This document shows, one piece after another, positions 7,480-8,096 of a stretch of DNA of 10,392 bases (position 1 is its first letter; each line of letters begins with the position of its first letter). The notes beneath the pieces are model-generated. The model did no database searches. It worked only from the letters and a program-made list of their open reading frames with translations, and was not told the origin of the DNA. A program made the translations under genes and the position numbers. Origin of the DNA: a virus (lineage: Duplodnaviria; Heunggongvirae; Uroviricota; Caudoviricetes). The DNA is taken from IMG/VR virus record IMGVR_UViG_2534681697_000028, positions 1-10,392 of that record. One strand, written 5' to 3'.

Positions 7480-7668
7480 TTACGCATGGCCAACCCCCTG
7501 ACGAATACGGGCCGCGAATACAGCAACACAACCGGACGGGCAATGGTTACGCGCTTCGCGTTCAGTCCAGGCGGTGACGTGGATGATTTGGGACTCTGAC
7601 GCACCAAAGGCGATAAAGCGCCAGAGAAAGGCGGTTTGAGAATGTACAAGGGTAGGGGTAGTAGCCAT
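7480..7668 (-). CDS. hypothetical small protein, 62 aa (MATTPTLVHSQTAFLWRF...)
   Basis: ATG 7668 preceded by a perfect SD AAGGAGG (7683..7677) at 8-nt spacing. It is the 3' end of the 437-aa track ORF, which is otherwise rejected. Faint, uncertain resemblance to small DUF-type proteins of CP4-like cryptic prophages. Confidence 0.45.
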   Translation of the reverse strand: MATTPTLVHSQTAFLWRFIAFGASESQIIHVTAWTEREARNHCPSGCVAVFAARIRQGVGHA

Positions 7669-8096
7669 GTCGGCAGCCTCCTTGATTGATGGAATGTAAC
7701 CACCGCCGGAGGTCCTAAGCTCGCTGGCGGTGGACTGTACAGGGTTAGGACTACTGGCAATCAAGGGAACCAGCCTACCCGAAGGTAGCCCCATACAGCC
7801 CACCATTGTATAGGTGTGCGTGTGCGTCGATACAAAAAAAGACGTGTGCGGCGTCTGTATCGCCTCGATTGTCAGCGGGGTCCTAATCCCGGCACCCGTT
7901 TTATAAGGTGCACGCGAATCATAGCCTTGGCTGGCAGTGGCGATCAACTGGTTTTTCATACCCGCTTTATTCAGGTTGTGCGAGTCCCGCCCTTGCAGGT
8001 GTGTGGTATGATTTAACATAGCTACCTCGATACTGTTGCTATCGTTGGTGGTTAGACGCCCTGCATGTGTTGCGAGCACTGCGGGGCGTTGCTTAA

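What the first reader, a model, noticed from the sequence alone, without database searches (positions are those of the whole stretch)
7480..7740. SD-led 62-aa ORF with a structured leader inside an otherwise ORF-poor 0.9-kb stretch
Between the IS and the RHH operators the only convincing coding signal is a 62-aa minus-strand ORF with a perfect AAGGAGG. Just upstream of its SD is a 10-bp-stem hairpin (7700-7709 / 7724-7733). The rest of the stretch shows no credible gene. It could be a small accessory gene typical of satellite variable regions, but its role is unknown.
Basis: seen in the sequence. Interest (0 to 1): 0.4.

Follow-up and report, generated by a model that had tools for sequence, protein, structure and literature searches.

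The report
Icd/Kil gene behind C4 immunity RNA
The 62-codon ORF is a real, conserved gene of the phage P1 Icd / satellite P4 Kil family, and its "structured leader" is a known C4/CI-type antisense immunity RNA that pairs with the gene's ribosome-binding site, so this is the ordinary P4/P1-type RNA immunity switch of a phage satellite.

Summary
The ORF (7668..7480, minus strand; SD AAGGAGG 7683-7677) is real. It scores 60.1 bits against NCBIfam NF033153 "Icd-like" (cut-off 25), as do P4 Kil and a P1-like Icd. It has 97 homologues and a median dN/dS of 0.33.

The "ORF-poor" stretch is mostly RNA genes on the same strand:
- isrK/seqA-like RNA, 7911-7835
- a full-length C4/CI antisense RNA, 7810-7723
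- a second a1b1/isrK-like unit, 7449-7358

The C4 loop (7769-7758) and its single-stranded segment (7751-7745) are complementary to the ORF leader. The targets are 7718-7712 and 7688-7677, the second including the SD. These contacts covary across about eight specificity types.

It joins the 3' arm of the C4 closing stem to the leader. It is conserved, but it is not in the predicted fold when C4 forms.

The ORF frame stays open upstream through both RNA genes, as with P4's nested eta/kil genes. IS-free relatives carry a second C4-icd module. Here ISEc20 plus a 488-bp deletion destroyed it.

Verdict: a new member of a well-known kind, of low interest. The tandem modules are a modest side observation.

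The parts
7480..7668 (-). 62-aa Icd/Kil-family gene (the finding). It is the first SD-led cistron after the C4 RNA.
   Evidence: ORF and translation. NF033153 phage_ICD_like 60.1 bits against cut-off 25. phrog_29966 and phrog_1743. 97 homologues of 62-66 aa. Median dN/dS 0.33, variable columns by codon position 12/14/30. 38% identity to a P1-like Icd. AF2 model beta-beta-alpha-beta, pLDDT 79.
7677..7688 (-). a2 target CAAUCAAGGAGG, which includes the SD AAGGAGG (7683-7677). It is complementary to the C4 hairpin-2 loop.
   Evidence: Sequence. Covariation of this helix across 20 sequences (8 pairs changed on both sides). Allele table.
7712..7718 (-). b2 target UUAGGAC, complementary to the single-stranded GUCCUAA of C4.
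   Evidence: 7 of 7 pairs formed in all 20 sequences, 6 of them with changes on both sides.
7700..7733 (-). It pairs the C4 3' arm (7733-7724) with the leader (7709-7700), with b2 in its loop. It is an alternative to the base of the C4 closing stem.
7723..7810 (-). C4 / P4-CI-type antisense immunity RNA. The predicted mature core is about 7805-7728. The a' loop is at 7769-7758 and the b' segment at 7751-7745.
   Evidence: Rfam RF01695 78.6 bits (gathering score 45), full length. nhmmer 74.5 bits. The P4 CI gene hits the same model at 74.9 bits.
7835..7911 (-). isrK / P4-seqA-like RNA with an intrinsic terminator (stem 7856-7840 followed by a U run). It holds the upstream targets b1 (7886-7880) and a1 (7871-7863).
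   Evidence: Rfam RF01394 56.6 bits (gathering score 50). Terminator scan. Targets covary with C4.
7918..7947 (-). P_LE-like promoter TTGATC-18-TATGAT. It ends 7 nt before the isrK-like RNA.
   Evidence: Promoter scan. Both hexamers are conserved in all module-1 relatives. Promoter function is inferred.
7480..8019 (-). Eta-like ORF in the same frame as the 62-aa gene. An SD-led ATG at 8019 gives 179 aa. The frame is in fact open up to ATG 8793 (437 aa). It reads through the promoter, isrK, C4 and leader.
   Evidence: Phage_ASH (aa 291-385 of the 437-aa frame, nt 7923-7639) plus Icd-like domain, the same architecture as P4 Eta. No in-frame stop in 31 of 34 unique sequences (satellite loci incl. 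P4, plus one P1-like phage), against 68 and 197 stops in the other frames; the 3 exceptions include the P1-like phage (3 stops).
8118..8156 (-). Upstream, probably regulated, leftward promoter TTGACA-16-TTTAAT (8156-8129). It carries two TGTGCGCACA palindromes (8150-8141 and 8127-8118). It is a candidate P_LL analogue.
   Evidence: Read from the sequence. Inferred, not tested.
7480..7487 (-). ATGCGTAA overlap. The stop of the 62-aa gene overlaps the ATG (7487-7485) of the next ORF.
   Evidence: P4 kil/epsilon has the same geometry, GTGCGTAA.
7358..7449 (-). Second a1b1/isrK-like unit. It is the target element of a second immunity module with a different specificity (UUUGACAG / UAGCAAAG).
   Evidence: Rfam c4-a1b1 48.5 bits (gathering score 46.7) and isrK 35.4 bits (below its gathering score). 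The intact second module is seen in relatives.
7313..7332 (-). The first 20 nt of the second C4 gene (C4-2), cut off by the IS.
   Evidence: L008 C4-2 lies at 1838-1925. The window aligns to L008 only up to position 1857, which is window 7313.
5860..7312 (+). ISEc20 (IS110 family). It replaces 488 bp that hold the rest of C4-2, icd-2 and one more small ORF.
   Evidence: A 1-nt deletion near 6546 frameshifts the transposase.

Best explanation
The 62-aa ORF is the Icd/Kil-type gene of a P4/P1-type RNA immunity switch in a capsid-encoding, PICI-like satellite.

Proposed mechanism (steps 1-4 are inferred unless marked as shown):
1. A conserved promoter (7947-7918) transcribes leftward through an isrK/seqA-like RNA, a C4/CI RNA and then the ORF.
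2. By analogy with P1 and P4, C4 is cut out of this transcript as a stable RNA of about 78 nt.
3. Its hairpin loop a' (7769-7758) and single-stranded b' (7751-7745) pair with a2 (7688-7677, containing the SD) and b2 (7718-7712) in the ORF leader. They also pair with a1/b1 in the upstream isrK-like RNA. This pairing potential is shown by covariation.
4. Pairing hides the ribosome-binding site. The ORF is not translated, and transcription stops before the replication genes (DUF4222 protein, primase). In P4 this stop is Rho-dependent termination at timm, inside kil.
5. When transcription starts further upstream (candidate promoter 8156-8129), ribosomes can translate the longer in-frame eta-like ORF. 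That ORF runs through the RNA genes into the 62-aa gene. As in P4, this would make read-through insensitive to immunity.
6. The stop of the ORF overlaps the next ATG (ATGCGTAA), which suggests translational coupling.
7. The protein itself probably acts like P1 Icd (reversible block of cell division) or P4 Kil (toxic on overexpression).

It displays b2 in a loop. Its role is unknown, and it can form only where the C4 closing stem is not formed.
For: Identity of the ORF:
- NF033153 at 60.1 bits against cut-off 25.
- P4 Kil hits the same model at 76.1 bits, and icd-2 of a relative at 53.6 bits.
- BLASTP against the Icd of P1-like phage vB_EcoM-673R5 gives 38% identity, E 2e-8.
- RefSeq names the homologues 'host cell division inhibitor Icd-like protein'.

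Real coding gene:
- Median dN/dS is 0.33 and is below 1 in 99.7% of 365 pairs. Variable columns by codon position are 12/14/30.
- The AF2 model is compact, pLDDT 79.

RNA genes:
- C4 78.6 bits, isrK 56.6 bits, c4-a1b1 48.5 bits.
- P4 has the same order of parts and a P1-like phage has the same order with the same 54-nt leader.

Antisense pairing:
- a'/a2 and b'/b2 are 88% paired across 20 sequences.
- 14 pairs have changes on both sides. The covariation score is 0.588 against 0.211 in shuffles (0 of 500 reach it), and at most 54% of cells pair when partners are slid.
- Six a' alleles and five b' alleles occur in eight combinations. Each is matched by both the upstream and the downstream target.

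Nested eta-like ORF:
- The 437-codon frame carries Phage_ASH plus an Icd-like domain, like P4 Eta.
- The frame has no stop through the RNA genes in 31 of 34 unique sequences (satellite loci incl. P4, plus one P1-like phage). The P1-like phage has 3 stops.

Other points:
- The promoter hexamers are conserved.
- The first 90 nt of the ORF mRNA have 32 C and 14 G, the most C-rich and G-poor part of the region. This is compatible with a Rho loading site.

Literature:
- The P4 CI/seqA/seqC and eta/kil mechanism is summarised in PMC10111431 and PMC4825925.
- P1 C4/Icd/Ant is summarised in PMC8201110.
- Rfam C4 and isrK hits in Gram-negative PICIs are noted in PMC10111431.
- Icd-like genes occur in most satellites, including cf-PICIs that also carry YlcI/YnfO (PMC13612085).
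Against: - Nothing here is experimental. C4 processing, repression of translation, Rho termination and the activity of the protein are all taken from P1 and P4 by homology.
- ORF62 and P4 Kil are too diverged for BLASTP. They are linked only through the shared NCBIfam profile and identical context.
- The operon is broken in this copy. ISEc20 plus a 488-bp deletion separate the switch from the primase genes, and alpA carries a nonsense codon. The switch may therefore no longer control anything.
- The two-promoter (P_LE/P_LL-like) reading rests on consensus matches only.
- The window lacks P4's psu, delta and sid genes and has a capsid gene instead. The element is not P4-like in the strict sense.
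Confidence: 0.85

Rival explanations
1. The ORF matters only in cis. Its translation by ribosomes blocks Rho and couples to the next cistron, and the peptide has no function of its own.
For: - In P4, translation of the kil region is what prevents termination (summarised in PMC10111431; also my own recollection of Forti et al. 1999).
- The stop/start overlap suggests coupling.
- The last five or so residues vary freely.
Against: - dN/dS is 0.33. The core WRF...TEREAR...P.GCV.VFAARIRQ is nearly invariant and is shared with P1 Icd and P4 Kil.
- The predicted fold is compact, pLDDT 79.
- P1 Icd and P4 Kil have reported phenotypes.
Confidence: 0.1
2. The Icd-like protein, or its long eta-like form, is mainly an abortive-infection or superinfection-exclusion effector of the satellite. 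On this view it is not a by-product of immunity control.
For: [quoted passage not shown] It sits in a prophage-like element linked to a primase gene, and it is the likely effector of cell death triggered by a phage accessory gene. The window has the same architecture: a long in-frame extension and a primase operon.
Against: - No defence-system match was sought or found here.
- The ORF sits in the regulatory position of P4 kil / P1 icd, with covarying RNA control.
- The two roles do not exclude each other.
Confidence: 0.12
3. The hairpin 7733-7700 is a self-standing regulatory element of the ORF, such as a terminator, attenuator or riboswitch-like leader.
For: - It has 9 of 10 pairs.
- Pairing potential is kept in four sequence types, and 4 pairs change on both sides.
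Against: - No U tract follows it.
- Its 5' arm belongs to the 17-bp C4 closing stem, which wins in the full fold.
- Its energy is not unusual against shuffles.
- No Rfam cis-regulatory family matches.
Confidence: 0.05
4. The ORF is a chance reading frame, or the remains of a gene on the other strand.
For: It is short and lies in a region crowded with RNA structure.
Against: It hits a family profile. It has 97 homologues with conserved length and start. It is under purifying selection. There is no plus-strand homology.
Confidence: 0.01

Closest known systems
Satellite phage P4 immunity region: P_LE, seqA, cI (CI RNA), seqC, and the nested genes eta and kil, followed by epsilon and the alpha primase operon
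   Same: - Same order of parts on one strand: isrK/seqA-like RNA, C4/CI RNA, then a small SD-led ORF of the same NCBIfam family.
- The leader carries two sites complementary to the RNA, one covering the SD.
- The small ORF is the end of a longer in-frame ORF (Phage_ASH plus Icd-like domain) that spans the RNA genes.
- There is an 8-nt NTGCGTAA overlap with the next cistron.
- A primase operon lies downstream and alpA upstream.
- The alternative hairpin between the C4 3' arm and the leader is also present in P4 (CUAUCGCC/GGCGAUAG).
   Different: - The protein is too diverged from P4 Kil for BLASTP.
- The element has a major capsid gene and no psu/delta/sid in the window.
- A divergent YlcI/YnfO-type gene pair and palindromic operators lie between alpA and the switch.
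- The ancestral form has two modules in tandem.
Phage P1/P7 immI operon: c4 antisense RNA, icd, then ant1/ant2
   Same: - About 81% DNA identity over isrK, C4, the leader and the start of the ORF with a P1-like phage.
- C4 lies 54 nt before the ATG in both.
- Icd is 38% identical to ORF62.
- The C4 a'/b' segments pair with a2/b2 at the icd ribosome-binding site.
- icd overlaps the next gene.
   Different: - In the P1-like phage the icd frame is closed upstream (3 stops), so there is no eta-like ORF.
- The downstream gene there is an antirepressor or DNA-binding protein, not a replication operon.
- Icd is 73 aa with a different C-terminus.
Salmonella Gifsy-1 isrK, orf45 (STnc1160), anrP locus
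   Same: An isrK RNA with a terminator is followed by a processed RNA of about 80 nt, then a coupled downstream gene. IsrK is described as a structural homologue of P4 SeqA (PMC4825925).
   Different: In Gifsy-1, IsrK supplied in trans activates translation and the downstream gene is an antirepressor. No Icd-like gene is described there.

Membership tests
Icd/Kil small proteins (NCBIfam NF033153 phage_ICD_like) | Profile score above the curated cut-off | tested here: met
   60.1 bits against cut-off 25, E 1.5e-16. P4 Kil scores 76.1 bits.
Icd/Kil small proteins (NCBIfam NF033153 phage_ICD_like) | Small size (about 55-75 aa) and direct similarity to a P1-type Icd | tested here: met
   62 aa. 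38% identity, E 2e-8, to the 73-aa Icd of a Punavirus.
Icd/Kil small proteins (NCBIfam NF033153 phage_ICD_like) | First translated gene after the C4/CI RNA, overlapping the start of the next cistron | tested here: met
   C4 ends 54 nt before the ATG. ATGCGTAA overlap at 7487-7480.
Icd/Kil small proteins (NCBIfam NF033153 phage_ICD_like) | Inhibits cell division or kills the cell when expressed | not testable with these tools
   Known only for P1 Icd and P4 Kil from the literature.
C4 antisense RNA (Rfam RF01695; includes P4 CI) | Covariance-model score above the gathering threshold, full length | tested here: met
   78.6 bits against 45, model positions 1-87 of 87.
C4 antisense RNA (Rfam RF01695; includes P4 CI) | Two exposed segments complementary to sites upstream (a1/b1) and downstream (a2/b2, at the ribosome-binding site), changing together between immunity types | tested here: met
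   88% of cells paired, 14 pairs with changes on both sides, 0 of 500 shuffles reach the observed score.
C4 antisense RNA (Rfam RF01695; includes P4 CI) | Processed from the operon transcript to an RNA of about 77 nt (by RNase P at the 5' end) | not testable with these tools
   Needs RNA data.
isrK / P4 seqA RNA (Rfam RF01394) | Score above the gathering threshold, with a terminator hairpin and U run | tested here: met
   56.6 bits against 50. Terminator at 7856-7840. The second copy at 7436-7358 scores 35.4 bits, below threshold.
P4-type immunity with nested eta/kil genes | A longer ORF in the kil frame that starts upstream of the constitutive promoter and spans seqA and cI | tested here: met
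   Frame open 8793..7480. Phage_ASH plus Icd-like domain. Frame kept open in 31 of 34 unique sequences (satellite loci incl. P4, plus one P1-like phage).
P4-type immunity with nested eta/kil genes | Rho-dependent terminator (timm) inside kil, suppressed by translation | not testable with these tools
   The only hint is the C-rich, G-poor 5' half of the ORF.
P4-type immunity with nested eta/kil genes | A constitutive promoter directly before seqA and a regulated promoter further upstream | tested here: inconclusive
   Consensus-like sites at 7947-7918 (conserved) and 8156-8129. There are no transcription data.
P4-like satellite (element class) | Core genes psu, delta and sid together with int, alpA and the alpha primase | tested here: not met
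   The window has int, an alpA pseudogene and a D5-type primase, but also a lambda-E-type major capsid gene and no psu/delta/sid. The window is partial. The element looks like a capsid-encoding PICI (compare PMC13612085).

The most novel reading that the evidence does not exclude
In this satellite lineage the immunity cassette (promoter, isrK, C4, leader) behaves as a portable unit.
- It is joined in frame to Icd-like ORFs at different break points in different loci.
- It can be stacked. IS-free relatives carry two C4-icd modules in series before the replication operon. The two have non-matching (orthogonal) specificities and are linked by stop/start overlaps.

If both modules are functional, replication would sit behind a two-lock RNA gate. 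The long Ash-Icd fusion proteins might also double as cell-killing effectors. I found no description of tandem C4 modules in the literature held here.
Probability: 0.3. Interest if true: 0.5.

Novelty: new member of a known kind. Interest (0 to 1): 0.2.

Why it matters
The result explains an apparently empty 0.9-kb stretch. It is the RNA-based immunity region of the satellite, homologous to P4 cI-kil and P1 c4-icd. It is not a variable accessory region.

For annotation, three points follow:
- The 62-aa ORF should be called Icd/Kil-like.
- The C4 and isrK RNAs should be annotated.
- Protein calls of the 'ash family' type over this region are translations of RNA genes within an eta-like frame.

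The many covarying C4/target alleles give a ready-made natural set for studying RNA immunity specificity. This copy is decaying: an IS plus a deletion, an alpA nonsense codon and a frameshifted transposase. It is therefore a poor experimental subject. The IS-free relative (IMGVR_UViG_2874945390_000001) would be better.

Tried and rejected
- BLASTP of ORF62 against the old P4 'cI' ORF found nothing. The link to P4 Kil came only through the NCBIfam profile.
- Pfam has no family for the 62-aa protein.
- tblastn against the phage collection gave a single weak hit.
- The genome-contig scan confirmed only 2 loci.
- No solved structure matches by sequence or by fold (Foldseek against PDB, best E 2.0).
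- Shuffle tests on the hairpin energy were not significant for individual sequences.
- An anti-SD pairing (CCUCC 7712-7708 with GGAGG) appears in the MFE fold. CCUCC is not conserved in relatives, so I dropped it.
- The weak mir-3927 hit at 3393-3490 was treated as chance.
- The primary P4 and P1 papers (Sabbattini 1995, Riedel 1993) are not in the held library. Those mechanisms are cited through later open papers and my own knowledge.
- I at first took the promoter at 8156-8129 to be the P_LE analogue. I then revised this, because a conserved promoter lies directly before the isrK-like RNA.

Full report
**1. The observation**

On the minus strand there is an ORF from ATG 7668-7666 to TAA 7482-7480, 62 codons long. 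AAGGAGG lies at 7683-7677, 8 nt before the ATG.

It has eight contiguous pairs, an A-C mismatch and one more pair. It is real but not a perfect 10-bp stem.

The statement that nothing else credible lies in the stretch does not hold. An Rfam scan of the window gave, all on the minus strand:
- an isrK RNA at 7911-7835 (56.6 bits, gathering score 50);
- a full-length C4 antisense RNA at 7810-7723 (78.6 bits, gathering score 45);
- a c4-a1b1 target element at 7449-7400 (48.5 bits, gathering score 46.7);
- an overlapping weaker isrK-like match at 7436-7358 (35.4 bits).

The ORF-poor stretch is a block of RNA genes.

**2. The ORF is a real gene of a known family**

- Pfam has no match.
- NCBIfam NF033153, 'host cell division inhibitor Icd-like protein', matches at 60.1 bits against a cut-off of 25.
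- PHROGs families match, including one labelled from the old P4 'cI' protein call.
- The large protein database returned 97 homologues. They are 46-92% identical, mostly 62-66 aa, and named Icd-like by NCBI.
- RefSeq annotation of related E. coli loci says the same.
- Among 28 distinct alleles taken from IMG/VR loci, the median pairwise dN/dS is 0.33. It is below 1 in 99.7% of 365 pairs. Variable columns number 12, 14 and 30 at codon positions 1, 2 and 3. Amino-acid changes gather in the last few residues.
- An AlphaFold model is a compact beta-beta-alpha-beta unit with mean pLDDT 79. It has no solved relative by sequence or fold.

The ORF is conserved as a protein.

**3. Relation to P4 and P1**

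In P4 (NC_001609) the Rfam models place isrK/seqA at 8692-8615 and C4/CI at 8507-8420. The next SD-led ORF is kil, 8365-8168, 65 aa. It hits NF033153 at 76.1 bits.

The P4 and window leaders can be laid side by side. Each holds a site matching the single-stranded part of the RNA, a GGCG...-type stretch, a site matching the loop that runs into AGGAGG, and then AUGGCUAC. In P4 kil ends in GTGCGTAA, overlapping the start of epsilon. The window has ATGCGTAA at 7487-7480.

P4 Eta (8764-8168) is Phage_ASH plus an Icd-like domain. The window's frame is open from ATG 8793 to 7480, 437 codons. It has Phage_ASH at residues 291-385, which is nt 7923-7639. That span is the translation of isrK, C4 and the leader. 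The Icd-like domain follows.

A P1-like phage, vB_EcoM-673R5, has isrK, then C4, then a 54-nt leader and a 73-aa Icd. That Icd is 38% identical to ORF62 (E 2e-8). DNA identity over the RNA genes is about 81%.

**4. The antisense contacts covary**

In 36 IMG/VR loci and two E. coli genomes, C4 sits at the same distance (54 nt) from the ATG. Its closing stem is conserved, but its loop and single-stranded segment differ.

At least six loop alleles and five single-strand alleles occur in eight combinations. In every case both targets carry the matching complement. The upstream target lies in the isrK hairpin-2 loop and the bases after it. The downstream target is the leader b2 site plus the SD region.

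Counts on a 20-sequence alignment that includes P4 and second-module copies are as follows:
- the b'/b2 helix is paired in 100% of cells, with 6 of 7 pairs changed on both sides;
- the whole a'/a2 plus b'/b2 set is 88% paired, with 14 such pairs;
- the covariation score is 0.588 against 0.211 in shuffles, and 0 of 500 shuffles reach it;
- at most 54% of cells pair when partners are slid.

This is strong comparative evidence that the RNA pairs with the ORF's ribosome-binding site. It is the P1 C4 / P4 CI mechanism as summarised in PMC8201110, PMC4825925 and PMC10111431.

**5. The hairpin**

Without the C4 5' arm the hairpin forms, but its energy is ordinary against shuffles.

The potential is nevertheless kept in four sequence versions:
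- CCACCGCC/GGCGGUGG (this window);
- CCGCCACC/GGUGGCGG;
- P4 CUAUCGCC/GGCGAUAG;
- second-module GUCUCGC/GCGAGAC.

Four pairs change on both sides. In 20 of 21 sequences the minimum-energy fold of the arm-less fragment contains the hairpin.

It always encloses the b2 target in its loop, just as isrK hairpin 2 displays b1. I read it as a conserved alternative conformer of the unprocessed transcript. Its role is unknown.

**6. The nested long ORF**

The Icd frame has no stop codon in the 270 nt before the ATG in 31 of 34 distinct sequences examined (satellite loci incl. P4, plus one P1-like phage). The other two frames hold 68 and 197 stops in total. The exceptions are two loci with 1-nt indels and the P1-like phage, which has three stops. 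In most loci the frame is open for 143 to more than 500 codons upstream.

An SD-led ATG at 8019 would give a 179-aa protein. This matches P4 as summarised in PMC10111431. There, eta is translated only from an upstream promoter, and its translation prevents termination.

A conserved TTGATC-18-TATGAT promoter ends 7 nt before the isrK-like RNA. It resembles P_LE. TTGACA-16-TTTAAT at 8156-8129 carries two TGTGCGCACA palindromes next to the divergent YlcI/YnfO-type gene. It is a candidate regulated upstream promoter. Both promoter assignments are inferences.

The first 90 nt of the ORF mRNA hold 32 C and 14 G, which is compatible with a Rho loading site.

**7. Surroundings**

The window encodes the following:
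- an integrase;
- an alpA homologue;
- a YlcI/YnfO-type protein;
- the immunity block;
- a DUF4222 protein;
- a D5-type primase;
- a lambda-E-type major capsid protein.

That is the layout of capsid-encoding PICIs, which are reported to carry YlcI/YnfO and Icd genes (PMC13612085).

The insertion is ISEc20. A 99.6%-identical IS-free relative (L008) and others carry a second module after the 62-aa gene. It consists of an a1b1/isrK-like unit, a second C4, a leader and a second Icd-like gene. Its target sequences do not match the first C4.

In the window the IS sits 20 nt into the second C4. 488 bp are missing: the rest of C4-2, icd-2 and a small ORF.

The IS transposase has a 1-nt deletion. alpA has a TAG at 8984-8982 where the relative has CAG. 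The element is decaying, but the first module and the 62-aa gene are intact.

**8. Verdict**

The finding is the Icd/Kil gene of a P4/P1-type RNA immunity switch. It is a new member of a well-described kind and of low interest.

The less ordinary points are the tandem modules with non-matching specificities and the in-frame joining of the cassette to Icd-like ORFs at different break points. I did not find either described in the held literature.

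Noticed in passing
window 5860-7332; L008 1838-2345: ISEc20 is inserted 20 nt into a second C4 RNA gene. A 488-bp stretch next to it is missing. In the IS-free relative that stretch holds the rest of C4-2, a second Icd-like gene and a small ORF. The immunity block is thereby cut off from the primase operon.
   Followed up: yes
window ~6546 (ISEc20 transposase, 6092-7287): The transposase gene is 1196 nt against 1197 nt in intact copies. A C is missing near 6546, which splits the reading frame (ORFs 6092-6580 and 6871-7287).
   Followed up: yes
window 8982-8984 (alpA, ATG at 9014): The alpA/excisionase homologue has a premature TAG at codon 11. The 99.6%-identical relative L008 has CAG there and an intact 68-aa ORF.
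   Followed up: yes
L006-L041, about 120-240 nt upstream of the C4 gene; window 7957-8019: The cassette (KNQLIA..., promoter, isrK, C4, leader) is fused in frame to an upstream Icd-like ORF at different truncation points. The fusion comes after ...NLNK in the window, after ...WRFLALNIGE in L020-type loci and after ...EQEARQ in L016/L041. This suggests recombination between tandem icd copies, or a portable cassette.
   Followed up: partly
L042-L085 (IMG/VR loci): 44 of 80 related loci have an Icd-like ORF (N-terminus MLNHTTHPQGRD...) with no C4 gene directly upstream. Six of these have a C4 module downstream instead. Nine of the 36 loci with a C4 upstream also have a second module.
   Followed up: partly
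window 7639-7923 (minus strand): The Pfam Phage_ASH domain corresponds to the translation of the isrK-C4-leader region. RefSeq calls of 'ash family protein' or partial 'Icd-like' pseudogenes in relatives lie over these RNA genes.
   Followed up: partly
window 8118-8196: Two perfect TGTGCGCACA palindromes (8150-8141, 8127-8118) lie within and just after a leftward TTGACA-16-TTTAAT promoter. That promoter sits back to back with the promoter-like site of the YlcI/YnfO-type gene (8225-8422, plus strand).
   Followed up: no
L008 1501-1767: In the otherwise near-identical relative L008, the first Icd-like ORF runs to 88 codons instead of 62, which points to a change near its 3' end. Neither copy is fully intact.
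   Followed up: no
window 3393-3490 (minus strand): A long imperfect hairpin gave a weak, sub-threshold match to a eukaryotic microRNA family (26.2 bits, E 0.35). I took it as chance. The structure lies between the primase gene and the next ORF and was not examined.
   Followed up: no
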